A program made the translations under genes and the position numbers. DNA of 24,338 nt from Actinomycetota bacterium (lineage in GTDB: Bacteria; Margulisbacteria; Marinamargulisbacteria; GCA-2716485; GCA-002719695). The notes beneath the pieces are model-generated. The model was not told where the DNA came from and ran no database searches. It was given only the letters and a program-made list of their open reading frames with translations. The stretch spans positions 16,983 to 41,320 of the forward strand of contig NZWE01000033.1 of NCBI GenBank assembly GCA_002697535.1, read 5' to 3'. Shown piece by piece: positions 2,189 through 23,416 of the stretch (positions within the stretch are counted from its first letter, which is position 1; each line of letters begins with the position of its first letter).

Positions 2189-3484
2189 ATGGATCGTCTT
2201 ACGTCACAAAAATTGTTTAAACAAGCTCAAGAATCCTTGGTTGGAGGCGTTAATAGTCCGGTTCGAGCATATCAAGCGGTTGAAGGAGATCCGGTTTTTA
2301 TTAAACAAGGATCAGGTTCTCATGTAACCTGTGAAGATAATCAGTCTTATATTGACTATGTATTATCTTATGGCCCACTTATTTTGGGGCATGCTCATCC
2401 TGCTGTTTTAGCTAGCTTAGCTAAGACGATGCAAGCAGGAACAACGTTTGGGGCACCTACTCAGTTGGAAACACAATTAGCAGAGACCATTAAATTATTT
2501 TATCCTTATGTTGATAAGGTTCGTTTTGTTAGTTCGGGGACCGAGGCTTCTATGAGTACGATTCGGGTGGCACGTGGTGTTACTAAGCGATCGATTGTTG
2601 TTAAATTTAAGGGTTGTTATCATGGACATGTTGATTCTTTGTTAGTGTCTGCGGGTTCGGGTTCAGCTACGTTGGGGGTTGCTGATAGTGCGGGTGTTTT
2701 ATTAGATTCTGTCTCTCATACGGCTGTTTTAGATTATAATAACTCTCAGCAAATACAGGACTTTTTTAAAGAACATGGTGATGATGTTGCTTGTGTTTTG
2801 TTAGAACCTGTTGCAGGTAATATGGGAGTCATTGTTCCTGATTTAGAATTTATTAAGATATGTCGAGAGTGTTGTGATAATTTTGGATCTTTATTGGTGT
2901 TTGATGAAGTGATGTGTGGGTTTCGTACACAACGATCAGGAACTCATGAATGGATTGGGGTTGAACCCGATATGGTGATTTTAGGTAAAGTTATTGGTGG
3001 GGGTTTGCCATGTGGAGCGTATGCTGCTAAAGCTGATATTATGGATCATGTTGCCCCGTTAGGGCCTGTTTATCAAGCGGGTACTTTGTCGGGCAATCCG
3101 TTAGCCATGGCGGCTGGTTTAGCCACATTAACGGCATTAAAAGATGGTTCTATATTTGAGACGGTAAATCGTTATACGGCCGATTTAGCTAATGGTATTC
3201 GTGAGAGTATTCAATCTTGTGGTATTCCTGCTTCTATCAGTCAAAAAGGGTCGATGTTTACGTTATTTTTTACGGAACAGTTACCACAGACGTTTACGGA
3301 TGTTCAAACCTGTGATTTTGATCGATTTAAACAGTTTTTTCATGCTATGTTAGATCAGGGAATCTTTTTACCTCCATCTCAATATGAAGCTTGTTTTACA
3401 TCAGGCGTTCATGATGATAAGGATTTAAGTAATACGTTGAACTCAATTAACTATGTATTAACAATGTTTAAAGATTCTGTATAA
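2189..3484 (+). CDS. hemL: Glutamate-1-semialdehyde 2,1-aminomutase
   Basis: 431-aa ORF with the GGVNSPVRAY signature, an aminotransferase class-III fold and the PLP-Lys context ILGKVIGGGLP. It is divergent from hemA. TATACT at 2176-2181 lies 7 nt upstream of the ATG, with no SD. Confidence 0.93.
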   Translation: MDRLTSQKLFKQAQESLVGGVNSPVRAYQAVEGDPVFIKQGSGSHVTCEDNQSYIDYVLSYGPLILGHAHPAVLASLAKTMQAGTTFGAPTQLETQLAETIKLFYPYVDKVRFVSSGTEASMSTIRVARGVTKRSIVVKFKGCYHGHVDSLLVSAGSGSATLGVADSAGVLLDSVSHTAVLDYNNSQQIQDFFKEHGDDVACVLLEPVAGNMGVIVPDLEFIKICRECCDNFGSLLVFDEVMCGFRTQRSGTHEWIGVEPDMVILGKVIGGGLPCGAYAAKADIMDHVAPLGPVYQAGTLSGNPLAMAAGLATLTALKDGSIFETVNRYTADLANGIRESIQSCGIPASISQKGSMFTLFFTEQLPQTFTDVQTCDFDRFKQFFHAMLDQGIFLPPSQYEACFTSGVHDDKDLSNTLNSINYVLTMFKDSV

Positions 3485-3504
3485 AGGGAATTTGATAGTA
3501 ACTC

Positions 3505-3533
3505 TTTAAAGTGTTGTAAAAGACTCTTATAAT
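3505..3533 (+). promoter_or_regulatory. Putative promoter of the TPR/FliFG-like/motAB operon
   Basis: -35-like TTTAAA (3505-3510), a 17-nt spacer and a perfect -10 TATAAT (3528-3533), about 20 nt upstream of the ATG at 3554. An alternative -10-like TAAATT (3541-3546) lies 7 nt upstream of the ATG. Confidence 0.3.
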
Positions 3534-3553
3534 AGTAGGGTAAATTATCAAAT

Positions 3554-4741
3554 ATGAATAAGATGAAAGTAAATGTTTTAGTTATTATTTTTTTGTTGGG
3601 CTTTTCAACAAGTTTATGGGCTGTTGCTGCAGAACCTGATGGAAGTCGTTCAGAATATGATGAAGCTGTTGAATTAGAGTCTCAAGATACTCAAAAAAAG
3701 GATGTTGTTGATACGCCAGAGACTAGTTTAGAACAACCTGTCGAATCGCTTGATACGTTTGATACGGATAATTCAAGCAAAACAGTTGTTAAAGATAATC
3801 GTTCTGATGATGCTACTGTTGATATGATGATGGCAGATGTTGAAGAAGTAAGTGTGGAACTTGATGATGATATTATAGAAGTTTTAGAAGAATATGAGGG
3901 TTTAATTAAACGAAAACAATTTACCAAAGCTAATGAAGTTCTAACTAGTATTCCGATTGGTGCTTTAAATAAAAATCAACGGCGGCAAAAGAAAATGCTT
4001 AATGTTTTTGAGAAAATTGCTGCTGATCAAGCTGAGAATGAGCGACAATTTGGTAAAGATGAATCGTTGGATCAATCTGTTATGAAAACAATAAAACGGT
4101 TACAACGTCAGGCAAAAGTTTATATTTTAGAAGGAAGAACGGTTTTACCGCGTGACTTGTTAATTCAATCTCTTTATTTAGATCGTAAAAATTATTTGTC
4201 GAAACAATTGTTAGATCGATGTTTACAGTTACCTTTAGGATCTTATCAAGTTGAAAATATTGAAAAGAAATATTGGAATAATTCTTTAATAGAATTAAGA
4301 AGTGGGTTTCCTTCAAAATCAGTTGATTCGTTACAAATGTTGGCTAATTTTGATCCTGAAAATCCAATGATTTTTGAACGTATGGGTTCAGCTTTTTATA
4401 TGTCTGGTCAGGTTAAAAAGGCTGTCGAGGCTTGGAAACGTGCTTTATATTTAAGTCCAGAACGAAATGATTTAAAAGAGTTTATTGTTAATGCTGAAAA
4501 AGAAGTGGAGCGACAAGAAAAACTATCAAAAGCTTATTTTGACAGTAAAAAGAAGAAAAGTGATACAGGATCAGTTCAATCTGATGTGCCTATGCAGGTG
4601 TTACGGGTTGTTAATGATTCCAATACAGCCTTTAGTTATGCTCAAGAAGTTCGTCAACAGTTGGGTAAAGGTGTTAATGTGGTTGTAGAAGAACTTGATA
4701 ATGGTAAATGGGCTGTTAAAGTTCCAATCAAAAAAAAATAA
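3554..4741 (+). CDS. Secreted protein with a signal peptide, a long acidic low-complexity region, helical/TPR-like repeats and a short C-terminal SPOR-like module
   Basis: The N-terminus MNKMKVNVLVIIFLLGFSTSLWAVAA is a signal peptide. Residues about 30-115 are D/E/S/T-rich. A TPR-like motif is present (MGSAFYMSGQVKKAVEAWKRALYLSPERND). The C-terminal sequence MQVLRVVNDSNTAFSYAQEVRQQLGKGVNVVVEELDNGKWAVKV resembles half of a SPOR beta-alpha-beta-beta unit. This is the first gene of a tightly packed operon. Confidence 0.75.
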   Translation: MNKMKVNVLVIIFLLGFSTSLWAVAAEPDGSRSEYDEAVELESQDTQKKDVVDTPETSLEQPVESLDTFDTDNSSKTVVKDNRSDDATVDMMMADVEEVSVELDDDIIEVLEEYEGLIKRKQFTKANEVLTSIPIGALNKNQRRQKKMLNVFEKIAADQAENERQFGKDESLDQSVMKTIKRLQRQAKVYILEGRTVLPRDLLIQSLYLDRKNYLSKQLLDRCLQLPLGSYQVENIEKKYWNNSLIELRSGFPSKSVDSLQMLANFDPENPMIFERMGSAFYMSGQVKKAVEAWKRALYLSPERNDLKEFIVNAEKEVERQEKLSKAYFDSKKKKSDTGSVQSDVPMQVLRVVNDSNTAFSYAQEVRQQLGKGVNVVVEELDNGKWAVKVPIKKK

Positions 4742-4750
4742 GGGGTTAGT

Positions 4751-6190
4751 ATGAAAAAAATAATTATTTTTATTCTTTGTTTATTATGTTTTTCACAGTG
4801 TTTATTTGCTGCATCAGATCGATATTTAATAGAAGATAATTTAACTGGGATTGCTCAGCAAACATTAGATGCTATGTTTGGAAAAAATAATTTTATTGTT
4901 CGTGTTCAAGTTCAGATGACAGATTCAAAATATAATGTTCGGTATACTAAAGAATCAAATCCGCAACAATCAAAATCAAAATCTAATAAAGAGGGGGAGC
5001 AAGTTTATATTTTACCTGGGGTTCCAGCTTTAAAAAATATTGCACCTGATTCTTTAAAACAGCTTCCTTATGATTCGGTTACAACGTTAACGGAACCTAA
5101 AATTAAACGTATTCTTGTTAAGGTTTTAGTGAATAAGTCTTACCCACGTAGTCAGGCAAAAAAAGCAGAAAAGGCTTTAAAAGATGTTTTAGCGATGAAA
5201 AGTGGTCGGGATAAAATTAAGATGGAATATACAAAATTTTATGAGGATCCTAACGAAAAATCTCAAAATATTACTATTTTACCAGGTCCAGAAAAAATTA
5301 TGTCATTAGGTAATTTGTTTAATGTTCTTATTATTTTATTATTTATTATTTTTATTTTTATTTATAGTCGCTATCAAAAGTTATTATTAGCAAAAGAAGA
5401 TTCATCAGATTCAGGGGGTCCTTCCATTAGTGTTAATCCTAACTTAGAACTTCCAGAAGGCTTAGGTGGAGGAAGTAATGGATCGGATATGAGTATTAAT
5501 ATGAATGCTGATGTTAAACGATATTTTGATTTTGTGACTCAAAATAATATTTCTGATTTTATTTTTCTTATTAAAAGTCAGAACTTAAAACCTGATTATA
5601 TTAGTTTAATTATATCGTTTTTAGCGCCTAATTTATCAGCTAAAATTTTAAATAGTTTGGAACCTAAGGTACAAGCTCAGGTTACAGTTTTATTAACTGA
5701 GCAACGGTTAGGAAAAAAAGATTTGTTGGATAAATTAGAGAAGAAGTTAAAATCTGATGTTGAATGTTTTGTTGGTGGAGATGATAAAGTAGCTGATCTT
5801 TCTGAATCATTATCTAATAAGCAACGAAAAGAAATTACACAATTTTCTAAAAAAATTAATCCAAAAGGGTATAAAAAGTTACGTCCGCATATGGTTTTGT
5901 TTGACGATATTCTTCTTTTAGATGATTCAGAGTTACAATTTGTTTTATCGGATTTAAACTTAGAACAACTTGCTACAGCTTTAGTTGGTGCTGATCAAGG
6001 GTTGTTTTCAAAAATTAATGATAATTTAACAAAAGGTGCCCGAGATATGGTTGGACAGTATTTAGAGCTAAAAAGTGAGTCTTCTAATGAATCTCATATT
6101 GAAAGTGCTCAAGATGCTATAATAAAAGTGTTAAGGAAGTTAGATGCTCAAGGAAAAATTAAATTGGCTGATAAATTAAAGACAGCATAA
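4751..6190 (+). CDS. Membrane-anchored FliG-like protein: signal/anchor, a periplasmic FliF/SctJ-like ring-building motif, one TM helix, then cytoplasmic FliG middle and C-terminal domains
   Basis: SD AAGGGG precedes the ATG. Residues 1-20 are hydrophobic leader. Residues 116-163 (PKIKRILVKVLVNKS...GRDKIKMEYTKF) resemble the end of the FliF periplasmic ring motif (IKRLSVAVVVN...RGD-V-V--F). The TM helix is at about 186-207. Residues about 257-472 align by eye with FliG-M and FliG-C. For example, MVLFDDILLLDDSELQFVLSDLNLEQLATALVGADQGLFSKINDNLTKGARDMV...AQDAIIKVLRKLDAQGKI compares with canonical MFVFEDILKLDDRSIQLVLREVD..DLALALKGAS.ELKEKIF.NMSKRAA...AQQKI...RRLEEAGEI. Confidence 0.8.
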   Translation: MKKIIIFILCLLCFSQCLFAASDRYLIEDNLTGIAQQTLDAMFGKNNFIVRVQVQMTDSKYNVRYTKESNPQQSKSKSNKEGEQVYILPGVPALKNIAPDSLKQLPYDSVTTLTEPKIKRILVKVLVNKSYPRSQAKKAEKALKDVLAMKSGRDKIKMEYTKFYEDPNEKSQNITILPGPEKIMSLGNLFNVLIILLFIIFIFIYSRYQKLLLAKEDSSDSGGPSISVNPNLELPEGLGGGSNGSDMSINMNADVKRYFDFVTQNNISDFIFLIKSQNLKPDYISLIISFLAPNLSAKILNSLEPKVQAQVTVLLTEQRLGKKDLLDKLEKKLKSDVECFVGGDDKVADLSESLSNKQRKEITQFSKKINPKGYKKLRPHMVLFDDILLLDDSELQFVLSDLNLEQLATALVGADQGLFSKINDNLTKGARDMVGQYLELKSESSNESHIESAQDAIIKVLRKLDAQGKIKLADKLKTA

Positions 6191-6199
6191 GGAGATAAT

Positions 6200-6979
6200 A
6201 TGAATTTAAATATTTTTGTAGGTCTTTTTATTGCTTCTTTAGCGATTTATTTAGGAGCTCCTGATGTTCGTAATGATATTACGGTTTATTTGCAGTTTAA
6301 TGCTTTTTTATTGGTTTTTCTGGGTACGTTTGGATCGACGTTAATTAGTACGTCTTTTGCTGATTTTCGTGGGTTATATGTTTTGTTTATTAGTTTGTTT
6401 TTTAGAAAGAAACGATTTTTGTCGCCAGTTGATGCTATTAAAATTATGGTGGATTTATCAGATCAAATTCAACATATTTCTCGACAATCTTTACCTGATA
6501 AAGTCGTTCATTTAAAGGATGCTTATTTGTCTAAAAGTATGGATATGGTTGCAGCAGGTTTGGATAAAGAGTTTGTTTTAGATGCGTTATATACGGATAT
6601 TGATGAACTTAGAAATAGACATTCTAAAAAGATTTCAGCTGTTCGTACTATGGGGTCTTTTGCTCCTATGTTTGGTATGGCTGGTACGGTTATTGGGGTT
6701 ATTCAGGTTTTAAAAAATGTTACTGATATTGAAAATATTGTTGCAGGGATGGCCTTAGCTTTGTTAACTACTTTATATGGTTTAATTTTTACATCTATTT
6801 TATTTCTTCCTTTAGCGAATAAGTTACAAGCTTTAAGTGAAGAAGAAGTGTTATCAAAACAAATTATTAGTCAAGGTACGGAAATGGTGTTAGATAAGGA
6901 AATACCGCTTAAAGTTGAAAAGTATTTAACTGCTTATTTGGAATCGAGTCAGCAAGATAATCTGTTTAAAAAGAAATAG
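6200..6979 (+). CDS. motA: Flagellar-type stator A subunit (MotA/PomA family ion channel)
   Basis: SD AAGGAG. Four predicted TM helices arranged 2 + long cytoplasmic loop + 2, which is the MotA topology. Conserved MotA_ExbB motifs are present: SFAPMFGMAGTVIGV in TM3 with its Pro, and ALLTTLYGLIFTSILFLPLANKL in TM4 with its Pro. Confidence 0.88.
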   Translation: MNLNIFVGLFIASLAIYLGAPDVRNDITVYLQFNAFLLVFLGTFGSTLISTSFADFRGLYVLFISLFFRKKRFLSPVDAIKIMVDLSDQIQHISRQSLPDKVVHLKDAYLSKSMDMVAAGLDKEFVLDALYTDIDELRNRHSKKISAVRTMGSFAPMFGMAGTVIGVIQVLKNVTDIENIVAGMALALLTTLYGLIFTSILFLPLANKLQALSEEEVLSKQIISQGTEMVLDKEIPLKVEKYLTAYLESSQQDNLFKKK

Positions 6980-6988
6980 GGGACCACA

Positions 6989-7684
6989 TTGCCAAAACGT
7001 AAGTTACAAGTTAACAAGCAATCTGGGGGTGATGGAGGTGCTAGTGAGGTTCAAACAATTTATGCTGATTTAGTTACTTTTGTTATGATGTTATTTATTT
7101 TGTTATTTGTTTTGTCTTATAATGACGAGAAATCACAGGACTTTATTACAGAACTACAAATTAAATTTGGTGAAGAAGTAGAAGATAAACAACAAACATT
7201 AACTACGGATGCGTTGTTGGTTAGTAAAATTAATCATTATATTAAAAAAGAAGATTTATCTGAGTATGCTCATGTTGTTGTTGATGAGTATCGGGTTAAA
7301 ATGATTTTAAATCCACCTATTTTGTTTGATAGTGGTAAGGTTGCGATTAAACAAGCTGGTAAAAAAGTTTTAGCGGGGGTTGGTGATATTTTTGATAATG
7401 TTGTTAATCCTTTGGAAATTGAGGGACATACGGATAATGTTCCTATTAATACAGAAGAGTATGCTTCCAATTGGGAATTATCATTTTTTAGAGCTTTTTC
7501 GGTTGTTAAATATTATATTTTTTCACGTGGCTATGATCCTGTTAGAATGACGGCGAAAGGATTTGGTGAATATCGTCCTATTGTTGATAATAGTACAGTT
7601 TTGAATCGTGCTCAAAATCGGCGTATTGAAATTAATGTTATTCGTATTACGGAAACAGATGATTTTGATGATGCGTCTTATTAG
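6989..7684 (+). CDS. motB: Flagellar-type stator B subunit (MotB; OmpA-like peptidoglycan-binding C-terminal domain)
   Basis: TTG start 5-6 nt after SD AGGGGA. There is a single TM helix with the invariant channel Asp in IYADLVTFVMMLF (D27, nt 7067-7069). The C-terminus has the OmpA_C signature EGHTDNVP...SNWELSFFRAFSVVKY...GFGEYRP...NRRIEINV. Confidence 0.9.
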   Translation: MPKRKLQVNKQSGGDGGASEVQTIYADLVTFVMMLFILLFVLSYNDEKSQDFITELQIKFGEEVEDKQQTLTTDALLVSKINHYIKKEDLSEYAHVVVDEYRVKMILNPPILFDSGKVAIKQAGKKVLAGVGDIFDNVVNPLEIEGHTDNVPINTEEYASNWELSFFRAFSVVKYYIFSRGYDPVRMTAKGFGEYRPIVDNSTVLNRAQNRRIEINVIRITETDDFDDASY

Positions 7685-7838
7685 TTATTAAGTTACTATT
7701 TATTAAATTTATAAGATTTTTTTATGATGTGTTGTTATGGCTTCAATATTATCATATAAATCTTTCAATTTTATGCTAGGAGCTATTATTATAATGCTTG
7801 GTTTTTACATTTTTATTTGGATTAACAGAGTGTTGGGT

Positions 7839-9182
7839 TTATCTAAAGATTGGGGAATTTAGAAAATCATCGTTAGTTTCAGTTTGGCTTAATAGTTTTA
7901 TTAGTTCTTCTGTTGCAGATTCAGAATCGATATTTTTTCGTAATAAATAGGCCTTTTTAAGAATATCATTGGGGATTAGTAATTCTTCTTTTCGTGTTCC
8001 AGAATTAATGATATCAATGGCTGGAAAGATACGTCGATTGGCTAAACGTCTTTCTAGATGCAGTTCCATATTACCTGTTCCTTTAAATTCTTCATAGATA
8101 ATGTCATCCATTCTGGATCCTGTATCTACTAATGCGGTTGATATAATGGTTAAACTACCTCCATTTTCAATGTTTCTTGCTCCTCCAAAAAATCGTTTTG
8201 GTTTATGAAGTGAACTTGGATCTAATCCTCCTGATAATGTTCTACCGGATGGTGGTACAACTAGGTTATAGGCTCTTGCTAAACGCGTGATACTATCTAG
8301 TAAGATCACAACATCTTTTTGAGCTTCAACAAGTCTTTTAGCACTTTCTAATACTAATTCAGATATTCTTACATGTTGCTCGGGGGGTTCATCAAAGGTT
8401 GAATAAATTACTTCACCATTTACAGATCGTTCCATATCGGTTACTTCTTCAGGTCGTTCATCAATTAATAATACTTTAATGATTACTTCAGGATGATTAA
8501 TGGAGATGCTATTAGCGATTTCTTTTAAAATACTAGTTTTTCCTGCTTTTGGGGGTGATACGATCATGGATCGTTGACCTTTTCCTATGGGGCTTAACAT
8601 ATCAATGATACGGCTTGAAATAGGAGTTTGGTCAGTTTCTAGTTTTAGTTGGGTATCAGGATAAATAGGTGTTAATTGTGAAAAATGAGTTCGTGTTTTT
8701 GTATTAGTCGGATCTTGTTCATTAATGGTTTCTATGTGTAATAATGAAAAGTATCGTTCATCTGCTTTTGGCGGACGAATTTCTCCCAGAATAATGTCTC
8801 CGGATGATAGGTTGAATCGACGAATTTGTGCTTGTGACATATAAATGTCGTAGGCACTTGGTAAATAATTTTCTGTTCTTAAAAATCCGTATCCATCAGG
8901 TAATATTTCTAATATCCCATAGGCAATAATAATTTCATCTGCTTCAACTTTTTTTGTTAAAATCTTTTGAAATAATTCTTCCTTATTTAATAATTCAGGG
9001 CTTTCTATTTTTTTTACTTCTGGTAATTCTAGTAATTTTTGTAATGATGTTGATTTTAAAGTATTTAAACTCGTCGATGGTTGTAATATGTTTTTTTTAG
9101 ATTTTGTTTCTTGTGTTTCTTGTGTTTCCTGTGTTTCTTTTAGGTTCTTTTTTTTATCATTACTCTGATTTTTTTTTGTCAT
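7839..9182 (-). CDS. rho: Transcription termination factor Rho with a Lys/Gln/Glu/Thr-rich N-terminal extension
   Basis: 447 aa. It has the Rho N-terminal/CSD region ([14 protein letters not shown], ...[19 protein letters not shown]), Walker A ([14 protein letters not shown]), Walker B ([11 protein letters not shown]) and the C-terminal RKEELL motif. An AAGG SD lies upstream of the ATG at 9182. Confidence 0.95.
9105..9140 (-). repeat. In-frame 9-bp tandem repeat (about 4 copies) inside the rho 5' region, encoding (K/Q)ET repeats
   Basis: The + strand reads tgtttcttg/tgtttcttg/tgtttcctg/tgtttcttt, which encodes [13 protein letters not shown] in Rho. It is flanked by an A9 run (9169-9177 on +) directly after the start codon and an A8 run (9148-9155). 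Confidence 0.85.
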
Positions 9183-9336
9183 TATTATATACCTTTTTTA
9201 TGATAATTCTTGGTCTTTTTTTTGGATTCTTATGATGTTTACACTGTTTTTTTTCTTCTTAAACATAAATTTTGTGTTTTGGGTTGTATTGTTTTTTGCT
9301 ATATTTTGCTTGATTTGGTATATTAACAATAGTTCT

Positions 9337-10017
9337 ATGGTTTATTCTTTGCTTTATATTGTTGCTTTTTTTACTTTATTTAATGCTTTTGGTTTAGCTA
9401 GTTTCGCTGAAGAAGGTGTGGTTGTATCTGATTCTGTTGTCACCTCTTCTGTTGTTGAGTTAGATATGTCTCATATGGATTTCTTCTCTAAAGACTTAAA
9501 GTCTTTAGAAACTACTTTAGAAGTCAAAAATTATGTGGATAGTCTTGATATTCTTGAAAAAGTTAGAGATAGAATCCAATTTCAGCAAAACCGTGTTATG
9601 TCTTCTTTTTTCCCTTTATCTTTAGAGGGATGGTCTTTAAAAAAGAAGGAAAGTATTATTGATAATGAGCTGGCTAATACAGATTATGGTGTTATTTTTA
9701 CACAAAGTTATTTTAATAAGCAGGGACATACTATCGAAATTAATGTTGTTAATGCTGAAGAATTAATTCGAGATTATAACGATTTATTTAATAACCCTGG
9801 GTTGGTTAGGGGGATGGGGAATACTCATATTATTGATCAAAAGGGATATAAGACAATTGAAACGGTTTTTGATGATGTTAAACACTATGAACAAAATATT
9901 GTTTTATCTAATACTGTTATTATGACTTTAATTGCTATTGGTATTGATGATGTTAGTATTTTGAATAATTTTATTGAATTTGTTGATATTGAAGCGTTAG
10001 ATTTATATTTAAATTAA
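9337..10017 (+). CDS. Secreted hypothetical protein
   Basis: The ORF is open from 9232. Starting at M36 (ATG 9337) gives a good signal peptide, MVYSLLYIVAFFTLFNAFGLASFA/EEG. The stretch 9183-9336 is needed as the divergent rho promoter/5' region. I recognise no family motif. Confidence 0.6.
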   Translation: MVYSLLYIVAFFTLFNAFGLASFAEEGVVVSDSVVTSSVVELDMSHMDFFSKDLKSLETTLEVKNYVDSLDILEKVRDRIQFQQNRVMSSFFPLSLEGWSLKKKESIIDNELANTDYGVIFTQSYFNKQGHTIEINVVNAEELIRDYNDLFNNPGLVRGMGNTHIIDQKGYKTIETVFDDVKHYEQNIVLSNTVIMTLIAIGIDDVSILNNFIEFVDIEALDLYLN

Positions 10018-14278: not shown

Positions 14279-15796
14279 ATGATTGATTCATCATTTAAGT
14301 CTTTAGGGTCTAGTTTTTTACATGATTTAAGCATGAAATCATGGCAGCGTGGTATTGTTAATTTTTTTTCAGAATCGATTCCATTTTCATTTAGTTCAGG
14401 TAATGAATATGCTGATTTAGTTGTTAAGATGATTCAATTGTTTTCTGATCACTTAAACCAGTCTATTAATATTGTTGAATTTGGTTCGGGTAATGGTGTT
14501 TTTGCTAAGAAATGTATTCAAAAACTAAATGATTCGTCAGTATCCTTTCATTATTTAGTAACGGAAAATATACCTTCTTTAGTTGCTGATTTTGATTCTA
14601 TTCCTATTATTAGTCATTCTAATCATGTGGAATCTAAGTTAGTTGATATTCATAATGTTCAATTAGATCAACCATTTCATGTTGGTATTTTAACGTATTT
14701 ATTGGATACATTTCCTGTTAAAACTTTAGAATTAAGAGAGGGCCAATTATTTGAATGGATGGTGTCTGTTTCAGTTAAAGATGATGCTATTTTACAGTTT
14801 ATGTGTGATGGTGATCTTGTTACTTGGAAAAAAGCTGATATTGATGTTTTTTTATCTAATCCAATTGATGATAATATGTTGCCTGTTTTGTCTCGTATAC
14901 ATGATTGTTTGGATATTGTTTGGGAATCTCAACCTTGTTCAGCCTTAGTGTTAGATTCAACGGGAATTTTGGATGCTTGGTTACAAAAACAATCAAAAAC
15001 AGATCAGGGCTTTTTTAATTTTTCCTCAGCTTGGTGGGAAATGTTGGATTCGTTACAAACACAAATGGCAGATAATTTCATGTTACTTTGTTATGATTTT
15101 TCCTCTATTAATGTGAGCCAATCAAAAGATTATTTAGATAGTTTTGGTCGATTTGGTATTTGTTATTTTTATTCTATTCCATTTTTTTTGCTGCAAGAGT
15201 ATTGTGATCGCCATAACTTACAATTTATATCGTCTCAATTTCCAGATTCTGAAAATCAAATAGGCGTTATAACATACTTAAAAAGTATGACATTTAAACG
15301 TGATGTAACAGCACTTTTAGATACAACAGAACCTGGTCAAGATGTTTATGGTTATACATTAAAGATTCAAGAAGCTAATTCGCTTGATTTATGTTTGGAA
15401 TTTGTGAGGGAGGCTAAACAATCTTTAACACTTGATCAACAATCAGATTATGTTTTTTTATTTTCAATTGCTTCCAAATTGTATGAGTTTGGATGTTATG
15501 ATCAAGTGATACATTATACAGATTTTATTTTGTTTGATTATGGGGGATTTTCTTTAAATGCTATTCTTTTAAAATCTAAAGCATTACGAAAAACAGGGTT
15601 TATTAAAGATGCTTTATCTTTGGTAGATATGGGGCTTAAGCATGCATCTTCTTATGATTTGCTTTATTTAGAAAAGGCTTTTATTGCTCAGGAATTAAAT
15701 CAAATGGATGTTGTTAAAGAGTCTTTAACATTATATTTTGATACGGTTATGGTTAATCCTCAGTGGCAGTTGTTAGATTTATTAAAGTCATTGTAA
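14279..15796 (+). CDS. Putative class-I SAM-dependent methyltransferase (MidA/NDUFAF7-like, Methyltransf_28) fused to C-terminal TPR-like repeats
   Basis: Motif I is NIVEFGSGNGVFAKKCIQKL. It is followed by HYLVTENIPSL and ILTYLLDTFPV, which correspond to the MidA-family patterns -IvE-Sp-L- and -NE--DALPV-. Residues about 360-505 are helical repeats. The start codon is uncertain because there is no SD. Confidence 0.5.
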   Translation: MIDSSFKSLGSSFLHDLSMKSWQRGIVNFFSESIPFSFSSGNEYADLVVKMIQLFSDHLNQSINIVEFGSGNGVFAKKCIQKLNDSSVSFHYLVTENIPSLVADFDSIPIISHSNHVESKLVDIHNVQLDQPFHVGILTYLLDTFPVKTLELREGQLFEWMVSVSVKDDAILQFMCDGDLVTWKKADIDVFLSNPIDDNMLPVLSRIHDCLDIVWESQPCSALVLDSTGILDAWLQKQSKTDQGFFNFSSAWWEMLDSLQTQMADNFMLLCYDFSSINVSQSKDYLDSFGRFGICYFYSIPFFLLQEYCDRHNLQFISSQFPDSENQIGVITYLKSMTFKRDVTALLDTTEPGQDVYGYTLKIQEANSLDLCLEFVREAKQSLTLDQQSDYVFLFSIASKLYEFGCYDQVIHYTDFILFDYGGFSLNAILLKSKALRKTGFIKDALSLVDMGLKHASSYDLLYLEKAFIAQELNQMDVVKESLTLYFDTVMVNPQWQLLDLLKSL

Positions 15797-16520: not shown

Positions 16521-16563
16521 TGAGATTATGTACAACTCCTTGCTTATCGTATAGAATTTGTGT

Positions 16564-18411
16564 ATGGCTAGTCAATTTTTAAGTCAGGAACATGAGTTTC
16601 ATATTCCTGTGATGGGGACTGCATTTACGATTGATACACCTTTAAAGGTGGCTCGTTTTGGTATTTCGTCGGTTGTTTCCTTATGTGATGATGAGTTGTG
16701 TGAGGAAATGCGTCAGCATTATTCATCCTTATTTAAAATTGATTACGAAGCTATTACAGAAGATGATGATGATTTTCGTGGTAAGCGTATTACTGCTTAT
16801 TTAAATTTATTAGATCGTGTGGTTAATGACCAAATTGATCGTATTAAACAAGAATCATTTGATGATTCGAAATCTGATCTTGTTATGTATTTTAATTTAT
16901 TACCGGATACGTCACTTGTGAAACATGCTTATGTAGCTATGTTAAATGAAGATGATGAATTGATTAAAGAGAAATTACAAGCAGAATTAAGAGAGATGGT
17001 TAAACCAGGTTCGATTGATGTTAATATTATGACCAAGCTTGATCGAGATACTTATGATAAACAGGCTCAAAAAAGAGATTCTTATTATTCAGATGCTATT
17101 TCTGCTTTAAGAGGATTTGCAAATTCAACATTAAATGCATCGATTATTTTCTCTGCTGGATTTAATCGACGTTTATTTGCTTATTTAGAAAATTGTGCAG
17201 ATTTTTTTCCAGATAAACAAGGTCATATCAAGAAAAGAGTTGTATTAAAGGTTTCTGATTTTAGGTCTTCGTTAACGCAAGGTAAATTTTTAGCTAAAAA
17301 AGGGATTTGGGTATCTGAGTATCGTATTGAATCTGGGTTAAATTGTGGGGGACATGCCTTTGCAACAGATGGATATTTGATGGGTCCTATTTTAGAAGAG
17401 TTTAGAGTACAAAAGAAAGAGTTGGTATCATCCTTATTTCTTATTTATAACGAAACTTTAGCTAAATTAAATAAAGATACGCTTGAATCGATGCCTTTTG
17501 TTGATATTACGGTTCAGGGTGGTATAGGAACAGCTAGTGAGAACCGCTTTTTAATTGATCATTACCAGGTTAAGAGAACAGGGTGGGCAACCCCGTTTTT
17601 ATTGGTTCCAGATGTTACTTTGTTAGATGATGAAACACGTATGGTATTACTTAATGCAGAAGAAAAAGATTTGTATTTAAGTCCAGTTTCTCCTTTAGGG
17701 GTTCCATTTAATACGGTTCGAAATACGTTAAGTGAGCAACAAAAGTATGAACGATTTGAGAATGGTAGGCCTGGAAGTCCATGTCCAAAAGGGTATTTGG
17801 TTTCTAATACAGAGTTTTCTAAAAAGCCTGTTTGTACAGCATCCATTTTTTATCAGCGACGAAAAATTAAAGAGTTGGAATCATTAAATCTAGATCCTGA
17901 TATTTTAAAAGAATCTATTGCTTTGGTTGTTGCAAAATCGTGTTTATGTGAAGATTTAGCAGCGGGTGCTTTATTAAAAAATGATATTACGAACAAACGT
18001 CCTTTAAAGTCTGCTGTATGTCCTGGCCCTAATTTAGCTTATTTTTCTCGTTTGGCCTCTTTAAAAGATATGATTGGACATATCTATGGGCGATTAAATT
18101 TATTAAATGATAAATATAGACCTAATTTATTTATTAGTGAACTTAAAATGTATTTATCTTATTTCAAAACAGAAGTTTCTAAAGTGTCAGAGACGGCTAC
18201 TTCAATTGAATTAAAATATATTCAAGGCTTTAAAGATAATCTTTTAGATGGGATTTCTTATTATGATGAGCTTATTCCTAAGTTAGTTAATGAGACTCAT
18301 AAATATCGTGATAAGATGACATTAGAATTACATGATTTGAAATCGGATTTACAAGACTTAGTGGCACAGCATTCTGCTTTTTTTTTGCCAGTGGCGCAGA
18401 CAGTAGTTTAA
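16564..18411 (+). CDS. Conserved-looking hypothetical protein (615 aa); possibly a divergent FMN-dependent TIM-barrel oxidoreductase of the nitronate monooxygenase/FabK/PfaD type, with large insertions
   Basis: Three by-eye motif matches support this. HIPVMGTAFTIDTPLKVARFGISSVVSL compares with P-i-apMagvs---LaaAvsnAGglG. IESGLNCGGHAF compares with -EG-EAGGH-G. VQGGIGT...TGWATPFLLVPDVT compares with aGGI----------GvqmGT-FL-t-E. I prefer the ATG at 16564 over the TTG at 16558. TAGAAT (16552-16557) lies 6 nt upstream, and TGTACA sits 17 nt upstream of that. Confidence 0.65.
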   Translation: MASQFLSQEHEFHIPVMGTAFTIDTPLKVARFGISSVVSLCDDELCEEMRQHYSSLFKIDYEAITEDDDDFRGKRITAYLNLLDRVVNDQIDRIKQESFDDSKSDLVMYFNLLPDTSLVKHAYVAMLNEDDELIKEKLQAELREMVKPGSIDVNIMTKLDRDTYDKQAQKRDSYYSDAISALRGFANSTLNASIIFSAGFNRRLFAYLENCADFFPDKQGHIKKRVVLKVSDFRSSLTQGKFLAKKGIWVSEYRIESGLNCGGHAFATDGYLMGPILEEFRVQKKELVSSLFLIYNETLAKLNKDTLESMPFVDITVQGGIGTASENRFLIDHYQVKRTGWATPFLLVPDVTLLDDETRMVLLNAEEKDLYLSPVSPLGVPFNTVRNTLSEQQKYERFENGRPGSPCPKGYLVSNTEFSKKPVCTASIFYQRRKIKELESLNLDPDILKESIALVVAKSCLCEDLAAGALLKNDITNKRPLKSAVCPGPNLAYFSRLASLKDMIGHIYGRLNLLNDKYRPNLFISELKMYLSYFKTEVSKVSETATSIELKYIQGFKDNLLDGISYYDELIPKLVNETHKYRDKMTLELHDLKSDLQDLVAQHSAFFLPVAQTVV

Positions 18412-21412: not shown

Positions 21413-23416
21413 ATGTGGAAAGAAAAAGTAAGTTTTAGTGGTATAAGACGTTGTATTCAAACGAAAACCCTATTAAAGCCTGATAATAAGGGTCATTTTA
21501 ATACAGGTATGGAGTCTAATCGTACTATAGCAGCAACAAATATTCAAAAAGTTGTTAGAGGAAACGTAGATAGAGATAATATTAGTATGATTAGAAAGAC
21601 TAACGTTGTTAGAGACTATTTAGCTAAAGAATTTAATACTAATATGTTTAACTTATCTAAGAATTTATTTGCTCTTGCTAATATCTATCAACAATTAGGA
21701 GATAGAAATAAATTTTTAGACTGTTTATTTGATATTCAACAGTATCTGCGTTTTTCTATCGACTCATTTTCTAACTCTGATGTACCTACTGCTTCCACCT
21801 CTATGTCTGCCGTACCAATTGTTTCATCTTCTATATCTTTGGATTTATTAAAATTAGTAGACACTTATTTAGATATGGATAACAGATCATATGCTGTATA
21901 TTTATTAAACAATTTAGCAAGCTTTCGTAGAAACGATAGAGGTATTAATTTTCTTTTGGAATTTAAAAACAAGTTAGAAGATGTATCTGAAGAGGACATT
22001 TATTTTGATGCAAAAATACATACTATAAAATCCCAATTATATTTTGACAAAAATAATAAAGAAACAAGTCTTGTATCAGAAGAATATAAAAAATATTTGG
22101 AGAGACATCCAGCGGTTAATCTTAAGTTTGCTGAAGTATATTGTAAATTAGAGAAGCCGTTAATTGCTAAATGTATATTATTTTTATTAAAAGATCATCC
22201 AGATGATACTGTACGGGCAGATGTTGTAAATTTTTGTGTTCAATTTTATTCTGCTGATCCTTCTTTTTTTAAAGAAATTTTAGAAGAAAAAAAAGAGTTT
22301 TTATTAGACTCTACACCCAGGTATGAAATGGTTATTTCTCCTATTAATAACATTATTACTGTTTTGTCTGATTGTTTGGAATCTGGGGATGCTGTAGCTG
22401 TTCGTACTTTGTTATGTTTTGTTGAGCCGCTTTCAAGGATGTTAGTGGATTTAAACAGCTCTTATGACTTAGATATGTGTTTTACGGGGTCTATGAAAAT
22501 GCGATTAGAGAAGGGTCTAAAGAATGTAATAGGTGTATATCCTTCAGATAAGCAACTGACTCAATCATGTAAGATAGCTATAAAAGATCAATTGAGGTCG
22601 CAACTTTTAATACTTAGATATTTAGCAAAAATTCCTGGTGATTATTCTGCGTTATCTTTTTTATCTATACCTGATGATTTAGCTGATCGGATAAATAAAA
22701 AAGAGAATATTATGCTAAATTGGAACTCTGATTCTAACATAATAAATTCATTGCGTGATACTATTAATACTATTGAATTAGACCCATATTCTTGTCTTAG
22801 GCATAGTTTAGTTGTTGCTACTGGAGTAATAGATGACTTTATATTTGATGAATATTTATTTTCTGATTCTGATACATTAATAGCTTTTATAAAATCATGT
22901 GCTCAAAAGAGATTTTTTAGTGACAGACAAAGGGCTATTTTGCATGAAATATATAAAATTAGTATAGGAGAAAATAAATCTAAAATAGATTTTCAATTAA
23001 TTGAAACTGTAAAAGATTGTAACGTAAATATGGAATTAGCAAAAATTTTTTCTAAAATACGAGGTAAAGATTATGGTTTGAGATTATTTGAAAATATAAG
23101 ATCAGATATCGAAAAAAAATCTAAGAGTTATGGTGTGTTAGATAATCTTTATTTATTATACCAATTAGCAGATACTTATTTGGATTGTGGTGAACCTAAA
23201 GAGGCACGTAAAATAATTGATAAAGCTGAAAGCATTGAATCTCGGCTAGATCATCCTGATTTTAAGGGTTTTTATGAGAAGAAAGCTTTGGTTTATTTAA
23301 AGATAGGACAGATTCAGAAGGCCACCGATTGTTTAAATTATTTAAAAAATTCTGCTAATGGGAATATTAATAGTAAGGTTTTGGAGATTTTAAACGCTTT
23401 TTTAGAAGGGGCTTAG
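21413..23416 (+). CDS. Large soluble helical-repeat/TPR protein with an N-terminal IQ (calmodulin-binding-type) motif; candidate host-targeting effector
   Basis: SD GGGAG (21402-21406) lies 6 nt upstream of the ATG. There is no signal peptide. Residues 44-57, IQKVVRGNVDRDNI, fit IQxxxRGxxxRxx[hydrophobic]. TPR-like repeats occur near both ends (for example LYQLADTYLDCGEPKEARKIIDKAESI and KALVYLKIGQIQKATDCLNYLKN). Codon usage differs from neighbouring + strand genes. Confidence 0.75.
   Translation: MWKEKVSFSGIRRCIQTKTLLKPDNKGHFNTGMESNRTIAATNIQKVVRGNVDRDNISMIRKTNVVRDYLAKEFNTNMFNLSKNLFALANIYQQLGDRNKFLDCLFDIQQYLRFSIDSFSNSDVPTASTSMSAVPIVSSSISLDLLKLVDTYLDMDNRSYAVYLLNNLASFRRNDRGINFLLEFKNKLEDVSEEDIYFDAKIHTIKSQLYFDKNNKETSLVSEEYKKYLERHPAVNLKFAEVYCKLEKPLIAKCILFLLKDHPDDTVRADVVNFCVQFYSADPSFFKEILEEKKEFLLDSTPRYEMVISPINNIITVLSDCLESGDAVAVRTLLCFVEPLSRMLVDLNSSYDLDMCFTGSMKMRLEKGLKNVIGVYPSDKQLTQSCKIAIKDQLRSQLLILRYLAKIPGDYSALSFLSIPDDLADRINKKENIMLNWNSDSNIINSLRDTINTIELDPYSCLRHSLVVATGVIDDFIFDEYLFSDSDTLIAFIKSCAQKRFFSDRQRAILHEIYKISIGENKSKIDFQLIETVKDCNVNMELAKIFSKIRGKDYGLRLFENIRSDIEKKSKSYGVLDNLYLLYQLADTYLDCGEPKEARKIIDKAESIESRLDHPDFKGFYEKKALVYLKIGQIQKATDCLNYLKNSANGNINSKVLEILNAFLEGA

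What the first reader, a model, noticed from the sequence alone, without database searches (positions are those of the whole stretch)
3554..7684. Orphan 'mini rotor-stator' operon: secreted TPR protein + FliF/FliG-like fusion + MotA + MotB, set among housekeeping genes
Four same-strand genes (3554-4741, 4751-6190, 6200-6979, 6989-7684) are packed with identical 9-nt junctions. The last two form an unmistakable flagellar-type stator. MotA has four TM helices and the conserved TM3/TM4 proline motifs. MotB has the channel Asp in YADLVTF and an OmpA-like peptidoglycan anchor. The gene immediately upstream carries FliG middle and C-terminal domains, which form the rotor surface that stators act on, but here they are tethered directly to the membrane. 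No fliM/fliN, export-apparatus, rod, hook or flagellin gene occurs anywhere in the 24 kb. The flanking genes are hemL and rho. Stator-family motors coupled to non-flagellar partners are known: Tol-Pal, ExbBD-TonB, AglRQS gliding, GldLM and Zorya. I cannot name a described system in which a MotAB pair partners with a membrane-anchored FliG-MC protein and a secreted TPR protein. It could be a self-contained ion-driven power-transmission module with a non-flagellar output.
Basis: partly seen in the sequence, partly recalled or inferred. Interest (0 to 1): 0.88.

Follow-up and report, generated by a model that had tools for sequence, protein, structure and literature searches.

The report
Membrane-anchored FliG rotor plus MotAB stator
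This four-gene operon from a marine Marinamargulisbacteria genome most likely encodes the torque-making part of that group's rebuilt flagellar motor (a FliG rotor domain fused to its own FliF-like membrane ring, MotAB stators and a periplasmic TPR partner), not an orphan non-flagellar machine.

Summary
Four co-oriented ORFs with 9-nt junctions encode a signal-peptide TPR protein, a 479-aa FliF/FliG hybrid, MotA and MotB. The hybrid has a periplasmic domain like FliF RBM3/beta-collar, one TM helix, and FliG middle and C domains.

The reading "orphan, non-flagellar" does not hold at clade level. The window is from Marinamargulisbacteria. hemL-TPR-hybrid is conserved in 29 species. In relatives it lies beside flagellar genes:
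- L024: fliK, flhB-like, flgF, flgG, flgA, flgH, flgI, sigma, flgC, fliE, fliF.
- L007: the hybrid and motAB head an operon running fliK to flhA.

One single-cell genome carries both the hybrid and fliF. This clade keeps a full-length FliF. At the usual fliG position it has only a roughly 200-aa protein covering FliG_N and the start of FliG_M. So FliG is split, and this operon holds the only FliG_C seen.

Three features are unusual. The FliM-binding EHPQ motif is lost. All five canonical torque-helix charges are lost. MotA R90 and E98 are lost.

The nearest precedents are the Salmonella FliF-FliG deletion-fusion mutants and the Chlamydia FliF-FliG fusion. I rate it a new variant of a known kind and moderately interesting. 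Whether a filament exists, and how the two rings connect, remains unknown.

The parts
3505..3533 (+). sigma-70-like promoter candidate (TTTAAA-17-TATAAT) in the 69-nt hemL-TPR gap
   Evidence: this is the best-scoring site in 3400-7900, at 10 of 12 matches. Evidence is weak, because the region holds fewer such sites than shuffled sequence does.
3554..4741 (+). 395-aa protein with an N-terminal signal peptide, an acidic low-complexity stretch, a TPR-like helical region (about residues 200-310) and a conserved C-terminal beta-alpha-beta-beta module
   Evidence: TPR_2 E = 1e-4, MamA-like TPR E = 2.8e-7; conserved orthologues; the AF2 model and Foldseek give generic TPR matches; it sits directly upstream of the FliF/FliG hybrid in all 29 species loci, including those without motAB. 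SPOR is sub-threshold only.
4751..4822 (+). N-terminal hydrophobic segment of the 479-aa protein (signal peptide or TM1)
   Evidence: Read from the sequence (MKKIIIFILCLLCFSQCLFA/AS). models a helix from residue 2 to 43. Whether it is cleaved was not tested.
4823..5305 (+). Periplasmic FliF-RBM3-like ring-building domain. Its insertion (residues 67-107) carries the most conserved motif, YILPGVPALKNIAPD..LPYDSVTT, and is a candidate short beta-collar.
   Evidence: Foldseek hits to the FliF RBM3/collar and to SpoIIIAG; motif conservation. PF08345 scores above cut-off in relatives P0104 and P0103; a weak hhalign match to the clade's own FliF at residues 355-417.
5306..5404 (+). Transmembrane helix (residues 186-218)
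   Evidence: models a helix at 186-218. The sequence there is hydrophobic.
5405..5509 (+). Disordered cytoplasmic linker carrying the conserved motif SVNPNLELPEG
   Evidence: pLDDT below 50. P230, E233 and P235 are nearly invariant.
5510..6190 (+). FliG middle and C-terminal domains (the torque-ring part), with the EHPQ motif and the canonical torque-helix charges replaced
   Evidence: Searches support the domain assignment. K264, R281, D288, D289 and R297 are replaced by V, G, Q, Y and N.
6200..6979 (+). MotA-type stator A subunit (259 aa)
   Evidence: P173 and P222 are conserved, and R90 and E98 are replaced by Q and P.
6989..7684 (+). MotB-type stator B subunit (231 aa, TTG start) with channel Asp D27, a plug and an OmpA-like peptidoglycan-binding domain
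   Evidence: plus the sequence motif IYADLVTF.

Best explanation
The operon encodes the torque-generating module of a divergent, flagellum-derived motor that is typical of Marinamargulisbacteria.

**What is shown.** In this clade the classical three-domain FliG is split.
- A roughly 200-aa protein holding FliG_N and the first part of FliG_M is encoded right after a full-length fliF. That FliF keeps its FliG_N-binding tail.
- FliG_M and FliG_C sit on the 479-aa protein studied here.
- That protein is anchored in the membrane by one TM helix. Its periplasmic domain resembles the ring-forming RBM3/beta-collar part of FliF.

**What is inferred.**
- The 479-aa protein oligomerises through its RBM3-like domain. 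This places a ring of FliG_MC under the membrane, around or next to the FliF MS-ring.
- MotA5B2-type stators conduct ions through the conserved Asp and Pro channel. They are fixed to peptidoglycan by the OmpA-like domain and push on the FliG_C ring.
- Torque reaches the FliF/rod axis by one of two routes: periplasmic contact between the RBM3-like ring and FliF, or stacking of the short FliG's ARM_M on the ARM_C of the anchored FliG_MC, as between neighbouring FliG subunits in a normal C-ring.
- The secreted TPR protein always accompanies the 479-aa protein, even where motAB is absent. It is probably a periplasmic scaffold or anchor for that ring.
For: **Taxon and conservation.**
- 51 close homologues, all 470-500 aa; the named ones are Marinamargulisbacteria.
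- hemL-TPR-hybrid occurs in 29 GTDB species loci, and motAB follows in about 19 of them.

**Flagellar linkage.**
- L007: the hybrid, motA and motB are followed by fliK, flgE, fliM, fliN, fliO, fliP, fliQ, fliR, flhB and flhA.
- L024: TPR and the hybrid are followed within 1 kb by fliK-like, flhB_rel, flgF, flgG (263 bits, cut-off 252.75), flgA, flgH, flgI (364, cut-off 300), sigma, flgC, fliE and the fliF N-terminus.
- L025, L027 and L028 have flagellar genes on both sides within 10 kb.
- SAG AG-414-C22 carries both P0021 (the hybrid) and P0323 (FliF).
- Carnevali et al. 2019 Supplementary Data 2 lists FlhA, FlhB, FliOPQR, FliN, FliF, FlgC, FlgF, FlgH, FlgI, FlgE and FlgA in Marinamargulisbacteria SAGs. 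FliG is flagged only as 'check_length'.

**Split FliG.**
- In 18 clade contigs with readable sequence after fliF, a full-length fliF (515-591 aa) is followed by a 198-338-aa ORF (mostly 198-251 aa).
- That ORF scores Pfam FliG_N 29.4 (cut-off 25).
- Its profile aligns to Salmonella FliG residues 3-157 with E = 1.6e-9, including an EHPQ-like motif.
- No FliG_C is found there.

**Precedent.** Engineered FliF-FliG fusions are motile. This includes a deletion-fusion that lacks most of FliG_N (PMC7355467; PMC4768692).

**Stator integrity.** MotA P173 and P222 are invariant, and the MotB Asp, plug and OmpA domain are present.

**Shared synteny.** rho is next to the module both in L007 and in the window.
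Against: - **No direct link in this organism.** The window holds no other flagellar gene. The link rests on relatives with 30-80% identity.
- **No known docking route.** The 479-aa protein lacks FliG_N, so no known mechanism docks it to FliF.
- **Non-canonical interface.** The FliM-binding EHPQ motif is NLKP here. All five canonical torque-helix charges are lost, as are MotA R90 and E98. The replacements do not co-vary cleanly between the partners.
- **motAB not always adjacent.** 8 of 29 species loci keep TPR and the hybrid but have no motAB within 10 kb.
- **Non-flagellar paralogues.** Flagellated Riflemargulisbacteria have paralogues with the same architecture in non-flagellar neighbourhoods.
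- **Apparently incomplete regulon.** FliM, FliH, FliI, FliJ, FlgK, FlgL and FliD were not found in the three SAGs. The SAGs are incomplete, so this is weak evidence.
Confidence: 0.7

Rival explanations
1. This is the first reader's idea: an independent, non-flagellar rotor-stator machine. The 479-aa protein forms its own ring. MotAB turns that ring, and the output goes through the periplasmic RBM3-like domain and the TPR protein to something other than a flagellum. The clade's basal-body genes, with their truncated FliG, would then belong to a separate and possibly non-rotating structure.
For: - The protein has its own ring-building domain and TM helix and no FliG_N, so it needs no FliF.
- The operon is separate from the fliF cluster in marine members.
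- The canonical FliG-MotA charge pairs and the EHPQ motif are lost.
- The TPR protein and the hybrid form an invariant pair.
- Riflemargulisbacteria, which are reported to have normal FliG, carry paralogues P0199 and P0198. These lie beside giant surface proteins and SLH proteins, not flagellar genes.
Against: - In L007 the gene heads the flagellar operon. In L024 it abuts the rod, ring and fliF cluster.
- The clade's flagellar cluster lacks any FliG_C of its own. The basal body would then have no torque ring even though MotAB is kept.
- MotA and MotB are flagellar-type, not Tol/Exb-type: E = 1e-33 to 1e-44 against about 1e-6.
Confidence: 0.17
2. The module is a non-rotating remnant. The FliG_MC ring serves only as an assembly or scaffolding platform for a reduced, filament-less basal body used for secretion or envelope anchoring. 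MotAB is on its way to being lost.
For: - All canonical rotor-stator charges are lost.
- motAB is absent beside the hybrid in 8 of 29 species.
- Hook-filament junction, cap, FliM and ATPase genes were not detected in the SAGs.
- Sister Saganbacteria keep basal-body operons without the hybrid or motAB at the syntenic site.
Against: - All four ORFs are intact and conserved across 29 species at 30-80% identity.
- The MotA channel prolines and the MotB Asp and plug are invariant where motAB is present.
- The torque helix is strongly conserved within the clade, with a Q-[YF]-L-[ED]-L-K signature. That pattern argues for a selected interface, not decay.
Confidence: 0.1

Closest known systems
Canonical flagellar rotor-stator (FliF MS-ring, FliG, MotA5B2)
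   Same: It has the FliG_M and FliG_C folds, an RBM3-like ring domain, and MotA/MotB with the channel Pro and Asp residues, a plug and an OmpA anchor. In relatives the genes are linked to flagellar genes.
   Different: FliG is split, and its MC part is covalently anchored in the membrane on its own RBM3-like domain. It has no FliG_N and no EHPQ motif. None of the five conserved torque-helix charges is kept, nor are MotA R90 and E98. NCBIfam equivalog cut-offs for fliG, motA and motB are not reached.
Engineered or spontaneous Salmonella FliF-FliG fusions, including the deletion-fusion lacking most of FliG_N, and the Vibrio FliF-FliG fusion (PMC7355467, PMC4768692, PMC11481574)
   Same: FliG is joined covalently to the C-terminal, RBM3-bearing half of FliF, with the FliF-tail/FliG_N co-folded domain dispensed with. 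The laboratory fusions assemble and rotate.
   Different: This one is natural and conserved across a clade. RBM1 and RBM2 are also missing. It coexists with a separate full-length FliF and a separate FliG_N(M) protein.
Chlamydiaceae natural FliF-FliG fusion (Bergeron 2016, PMC4768692)
   Same: It is a natural protein in which a FliF-like periplasmic RBM and a TM helix are followed by a FliG-like cytoplasmic domain, in a lineage without a conventional flagellum.
   Different: The Chlamydia protein is about 330 aa. It keeps part of the SctJ-like domain, lacks the RBM3/SpoIIIAG-like domain and carries only a FliG_M-like region. No MotAB partner is described for it. The protein here keeps RBM3, FliG_M and FliG_C and is encoded with MotAB.
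SpoIIIAG (sporulation channel ring)
   Same: It has an RBM fold split by a beta insertion that builds a large ring. Foldseek matches 5wc3 at E = 6.5e-3.
   Different: There is no sequence family relationship beyond the fold, and the cytoplasmic part and context are different.
Periplasmic stator and rotor scaffolds of elaborated motors: PflA/PflB (TPR) in Campylobacter, MotX (Sel1/TPR-like) and MotY in Vibrio. This comparison comes from my own knowledge and was not tested.
   Same: These are secreted repeat proteins encoded with, or acting on, MotB-type stators.
   Different: No detectable homology was found; the matches are generic TPR only. Here the TPR protein tracks the FliF/FliG hybrid rather than MotB.

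Membership tests
FliG (flagellar rotor/switch protein) | FliG_M and FliG_C domains with the FliG fold | tested here: met
   Pfam scores are 27.8 (cut-off 25) and 70 (cut-off 23.3). Residues 259-473 align to T. maritima FliG_MC with E = 3e-22. Foldseek gives 1lkv at 1.6e-9, and 1qc7 and 8ucs_H at TM 0.85-0.95.
FliG (flagellar rotor/switch protein) | FliG_N domain that co-folds with the FliF C-terminal tail | tested here: not met
   The 479-aa protein has no FliG_N. In relatives FliG_N lies on a separate protein of about 200 aa encoded after fliF.
FliG (flagellar rotor/switch protein) | EHPQR motif of FliG_M (FliM binding) | tested here: not met
   Aligned to T. maritima SEHPQ, the window protein reads QNLKP.
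FliG (flagellar rotor/switch protein) | Conserved torque-helix charges (E. coli K264, R281, D288, D289, R297) | tested here: not met
   The window protein has V, G, Q, Y and N at these positions. Most of the 27 clade members carry similar uncharged residues; L034 keeps R..EE and three others keep one acidic residue.
FliG (flagellar rotor/switch protein) | Curated equivalog score (TIGR00207) | tested here: not met
   The score is 78.2 bits against a cut-off of 226.7.
FliG (flagellar rotor/switch protein) | Encoded with, or co-occurring with, flagellar basal-body genes | tested here: met
   This is met in relatives: L007, L024, L025, L027, L028 and SAG AG-414-C22. It is not met inside the 24-kb window itself.
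FliF (MS-ring protein) | RBM1 and RBM2 (PF01514 YscJ_FliF) | tested here: not met
   The 479-aa protein has no PF01514 hit. The clade's true FliF has it, with E = 1e-43 to 2.5e-48.
FliF (MS-ring protein) | RBM3 with a beta-collar insertion (PF08345) | tested here: inconclusive
   Structural support exists: Foldseek E about 3e-5 and TM about 0.5 to several FliF RBM3 chains. Sequence support is borderline: 17.6 bits here, against 29.8 and 24.8 (cut-off 23.8) in relatives P0104 and P0103. hhalign to the clade's FliF gives only 8.7% probability. The insertion is modelled with low confidence. Ring formation was not tested.
FliF (MS-ring protein) | C-terminal cytoplasmic FliG_N-binding tail | tested here: not met
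   It is replaced by a linker and FliG_MC.
Flagellar MotA/MotB stator | MotA_ExbB channel domain, TM3/TM4 prolines, and closest relatives being flagellar MotA/PomA | tested here: met
   PF01618 gives E = 1e-26. PDB MotA and PomA match at 3e-33 to 2e-27. TolQ and ExbB models match at only about 1e-6. P173 and P222 are invariant.
Flagellar MotA/MotB stator | MotA R90 and E98, which pair with FliG D288/D289 and R281 | tested here: not met
   They are Q91 and P99 in the window. Marine clade members have Q and a non-acidic residue at these positions. The pairing is described in PMC12505986 and PMC7564593.
Flagellar MotA/MotB stator | MotB channel Asp, plug and OmpA-like peptidoglycan-binding domain | tested here: met
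   MotB_plug scores 26.8 (cut-off 24) and OmpA scores 52 (cut-off 27.2). D27 lies in IYADLVTF. NCBIfam equivalog cut-offs are not reached, at 135 against 264.
Non-flagellar 5:2 motors (Tol-Pal, ExbBD-TonB, Zorya, GldLM, AglRQS) | A-subunit closest to TolQ, ExbB, ZorA or GldL, with their partner genes nearby | tested here: not met
   Flagellar models outscore the TolQ and ExbB models by about 100 bits. No tolA, tolB, pal, tonB or zorCD genes are in the window.
Chlamydiaceae FliF-FliG fusion | Partial SctJ-like RBM, a TM helix and a FliG_M-like domain, without RBM3 or FliG_C | tested here: not met
   The domain set differs: here it is RBM3-like plus FliG_M plus FliG_C. The Chlamydia description is from PMC4768692. 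No direct sequence comparison was done.

The most novel reading that the evidence does not exclude
Marinamargulisbacteria, abundant uncultured marine relatives of Cyanobacteria, run a flagellum-derived rotary motor with a two-ring rotor not described before. FliF with a truncated FliG_N(M) forms the axial ring. A second, self-anchoring RBM3-TM-FliG_MC ring takes the torque from MotAB through a charge-free interface. There is no FliM switch and possibly no external filament. The wider family of membrane-anchored FliG_MC paralogues, found beside giant surface proteins in Riflemargulisbacteria, would then be rotor modules re-used for non-flagellar outputs.
Probability: 0.25. Interest if true: 0.8.

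Novelty: new variant of a known kind. Interest (0 to 1): 0.58.

Why it matters
FliG is treated as a universal three-domain adaptor: N binds FliF, M binds FliM, and C meets the stator. This clade appears to have split FliG. It has hard-wired the torque domain to its own membrane ring and dropped the textbook charge pairs and the FliM-binding motif.

If the motor still turns, three questions become testable:
- Which features of the rotor-stator interface are really required.
- How torque passes from FliG to the rod when FliG_N is on another chain.
- How rotor modules can be detached and re-used during evolution.

The laboratory FliF-FliG deletion-fusions would gain a natural counterpart. The finding also corrects genome annotations that call these organisms either 'motile by polar flagella' or 'FliG-less'.

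Tried and rejected
1. A genome-contig scan with the single protein found nothing. The alignment-based scan worked.
2. **SPOR domain in the TPR protein.** The window protein has no hit. Two orthologues give only sub-threshold hits, E = 0.035 and 0.094. I rejected it as a claim.
3. **A 'Rosetta-stone' link** between the secreted TPR protein and the C-terminal TPR fused to the 625-665-aa relatives. BLASTP gives E = 2.8, and the fused TPR has no TM helix before it, so it is cytoplasmic. Rejected.
4. **'Split FliF' hypothesis**, in which the clade's FliF would lack RBM3 and the hybrid would supply it. Rejected, because FliF is 515-591 aa and has a PF08345-like C-terminal part and a FliG-binding-like tail.
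5. **Clean charge co-variation between MotA and FliG_C.** Not seen. L025, L027, L028 and L039 keep MotA E98, but FliG R281 is N there.
6. **Looking for Marinamargulisbacteria FliP** to read the export-gate cluster. The top 120 FliP hits could not be assigned to the clade. The two contexts I read were Saganbacteria-like.
The single-sequence model is of low quality, with pLDDT 61.
8. **Flagellin search.** This is uninformative for whole genomes.
9. **Literature search.** I found no description of this architecture in Margulisbacteria.

Full report
**1. Observation**

The window has about 32% G+C. It carries four co-oriented ORFs at exactly the stated coordinates. Each junction is 9 nt long. The junction sequences differ, but in each one the stop codon overlaps a Shine-Dalgarno-like GGAG or GGGG. 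The best sigma-70-like site in the region lies in the hemL-TPR gap at 3505-3533, which is weak evidence for a promoter.

- The 479-aa protein has FliG_C at 70 bits and FliG_M at 27.8 bits, both above Pfam cut-offs. It has a weak YscJ_FliF_C match.
- Residues 259-473 align with T. maritima FliG_MC at E = 3e-22.
- MotA matches PF01618 at 1e-26. Its nearest solved relatives are flagellar MotA and PomA at 3e-33, and it scores far better on flagellar models than on TolQ or ExbB models.
- MotB has the plug and OmpA domains and the channel Asp, D27, in IYADLVTF.
- The first protein has a signal peptide and TPR-like repeats. These fall below Pfam cut-offs but are consistent.

No other flagellar homologue lies in the 24 kb.

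**2. Anatomy of the 479-aa protein**

I built an AF2 model from 26 homologues (pLDDT 73.5). In order, it shows:
- an N-terminal hydrophobic helix;
- a beta-beta / insertion / beta-beta-alpha-beta domain at residues 25-185;
- a TM helix at 186-218;
- a disordered linker;
- the FliG_MC helices.

Foldseek matches the C-terminal half to FliG structures. These include FliG_C bound to MotAB (8ucs_H, TM 0.88). It matches the periplasmic half to the RBM3/beta-collar part of FliF in several MS-ring cryo-EM entries (E about 3e-5, TM about 0.5) and to SpoIIIAG.

Relatives reach the Pfam cut-off for the FliF C-terminal (RBM3) family: P0104 at 29.8 bits and P0103 at 24.8 bits. A profile-profile comparison with the clade's own FliF finds only a weak match in the RBM3 C-terminal beta-alpha-beta.

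The most conserved stretch of the family is YILPGVPALKNIAPD..LPYDSVTT. It lies in the low-confidence insertion, where FliF has its collar.

**3. Where it comes from and how conserved it is**

All 51 close homologues are 470-500 aa. The named ones are Candidatus Marinamargulisbacteria SAGs. An alignment-based scan of species-representative genomes found 29 loci.
- hemL-TPR-hybrid is present in essentially all of them.
- motA-motB follows in about 19.
- rho usually lies next to the module.
- Eight loci keep the TPR protein and the hybrid but have no motAB within 10 kb.

The invariant pair is therefore the TPR protein plus the hybrid.

**4. The 'orphan' claim fails at clade level**

- In L007, a Margulisiibacteriota MAG, a 480-aa protein of the same architecture is followed by motA and motB. 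The same operon then runs through fliK, flgE, fliM, fliN, fliO, fliP, fliQ, fliR, flhB and flhA, with rho and murC upstream.
- In L024, a lake MAG whose hybrid is 37% identical to the window's, hemL-TPR-hybrid is followed within 1 kb on the same strand by a flagellar cluster. It reads fliK-like, flhB-like, flgF, flgG, flgA, flgH, flgI, a FliA-like sigma factor, flgC, fliE-like and the start of fliF. flgG and flgI score above curated equivalog cut-offs.
- L025, L027 and L028 have flagellar genes on both sides within 10 kb.
- SAG AG-414-C22 carries both the hybrid (P0021) and a flgI...flgC-fliE-fliF cluster.
- Carnevali et al. 2019 (PMC6349859, Supplementary Data 2) list FlhA, FlhB, FliO, FliP, FliQ, FliR, FliN, FliF, FlgC, FlgF, FlgH, FlgI, FlgE and FlgA in Marinamargulisbacteria SAGs. 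FliG is flagged only as 'check_length'. FliM, FliH, FliI, FliJ, FlgK, FlgL and FliD are not found. [quoted passage not shown]

**5. FliG is split**

I scanned metagenomes with the clade's FliF N-terminus and recovered 27 contigs. They share one conserved cluster: fliK-like, flhB-like, flgF, flgG, flgA, flgH, flgI, x, sigma, x, flgC, fliE-like, fliF.
- FliF is full length, at 515-591 aa. It has a strong RBM1-2 match and a partial RBM3 match.
- Its C-terminal tail is of the '..P..A..ME.WL' type, resembling the FliG_N-binding tail. That resemblance is judged from my own knowledge.
- In each of the 18 contigs with readable sequence after fliF, fliF is followed by an ORF of 198-338 aa (mostly 198-251 aa), and then by unrelated genes.
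- That ORF reaches the Pfam FliG_N cut-off (29.4 bits). Its profile aligns to Salmonella FliG residues 3-157 at E = 1.6e-9, including the EHPQ-like 'EQKPQ'.
- It has no FliG_C.

So the clade has FliF plus FliG_N(M') at the classical position. FliG_M and FliG_C sit on the membrane-anchored hybrid encoded with motAB.

**6. A non-canonical interface**

Aligned with E. coli and T. maritima FliG, the window protein has V, G, Q, Y and N at K264, R281, D288, D289 and R297. The 'Q-[YF]' pair is a clade signature, and only L034 keeps R..EE.

MotA has Q and P at R90 and E98. Marine members share Q plus a non-acidic residue. P173 and P222 are invariant. The role of these charge pairs is described in PMC12505986 and PMC7564593. 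The replacements do not co-vary cleanly between the two partners.

I checked them only by confirming that the numbered residues fall where they should.

**7. Wider family**

A profile search of 1.84 billion representatives found 234 proteins below 1e-30. Beyond the core family these include:
- 625-665-aa versions with a cytoplasmic C-terminal TPR;
- paralogues in Riflemargulisbacteria, which are reported to have normal FliG and FliM. P0199 (549 aa) and P0198 (911 aa, with SLH and TPR) lie next to giant beta-propeller proteins, SLH proteins and a response regulator, without motAB.

Saganbacteria-like genomes have the murC-fliK...flhA operon without the hybrid or motAB.

**8. Interpretation**

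The best-supported reading, at about 0.7, is that the operon supplies the torque ring and stators of a rebuilt, flagellum-derived motor.
- Shown: the domain identities, the conservation, the flagellar linkage in relatives, and the split of FliG.
- Inferred: ring formation by the RBM3-like domain, rotation, the route by which torque reaches FliF and the rod, and a scaffold role for the TPR protein.

Two rivals remain: a truly independent rotor-stator machine (about 0.17) and a non-rotating remnant (about 0.1).

The precedents are the motile Salmonella FliF-FliG fusions, including a deletion-fusion without most of FliG_N, and the Chlamydia FliF-FliG fusion. I found no paper describing this arrangement.

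**9. Limits**

- The window's own genome could not be inspected beyond 24 kb.
- Completeness of the regulon (filament, FliM, ATPase) is unknown.
- The model of the collar insertion has low confidence.
- No multimer modelling was possible.

Noticed in passing
L002:11447-12874 and L001:11447-12649: In the P0043 lineage, from two long-read assemblies, MotA reads in frame into MotB, giving a 475-aa MotA+OmpA product. This is either a real MotA-MotB fusion, which would clash with 5:2 stoichiometry, or a homopolymer sequencing error.
   Followed up: partly
window 14279-15796 (+): This 505-aa ORF has a weak Methyltransf_28 match. It is homologous (about 22% by tblastn) to L052:12221-13813, a 530-aa protein with MT28 and TPR that directly follows the short fliG_N gene in L052. 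The link to the flagellar regulon may be conserved.
   Followed up: partly
L009:10001-11650 and L010:10001-12736: Riflemargulisbacteria GWD2_39_127 has membrane-anchored FliG_MC paralogues of 549 aa and 911 aa, the latter with SLH and TPR. They lie next to 3,500-3,700-aa beta-propeller giants, an SLH protein, a response regulator and a 225-aa FliG_C-only protein, with no motAB nearby.
   Followed up: partly
L042:10337-10984, L052:11583-12218 and 16 further loci: The short FliG_N(M) proteins contain a long acidic linker. Most end in an acidic tail closed by a hydrophobic or aromatic residue (..LFSF, ..FFS, ..IFSL, ..LDF), which could be a peptide ligand.
   Followed up: no
window 9232-10017 (+): This 261-aa hydrophobic-N-terminus protein has no family match. 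It is conserved beside rho in several relatives (L013, L014, L021, L022, L029, L030).
   Followed up: partly
L052:9321-9992, L041:3040-3645, L024:18418-19032: The clade's FliE-like protein is 200-223 aa, about twice the usual size. The FliE domain occupies only the C-terminal end.
   Followed up: no
L007:5307-6020: The MotB of this lineage, which carries the module inside the flagellar operon, has a LysM domain instead of the OmpA-like peptidoglycan-binding domain.
   Followed up: no
L011 and L069: Saganbacteria-like genomes carry rho/murC-fliK-flgE-fliM-fliN-fliOPQR-flhBA without the hybrid or motAB at the syntenic position. Published KO tables list no FliG for Saganbacteria, so what serves as their rotor is unclear.
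   Followed up: partly
L024, L026, L030-L033, L037, L038: Eight of 29 species loci keep hemL-TPR-hybrid but have no motAB within 10 kb. Whether motAB lies elsewhere or has been lost is unknown.
   Followed up: partly
window 5405-5509: The otherwise disordered cytoplasmic linker between the TM helix and FliG_M carries a nearly invariant short motif, SVNPNLELPEG, with P230, E233 and P235 conserved. It is a candidate docking peptide.
   Followed up: no
window 16558-18411 (+) and 21413-23416 (+): The 617-aa ORF has no family match at all. The 667-aa ORF has only a C-terminal TPR. Neither was examined further.
   Followed up: no
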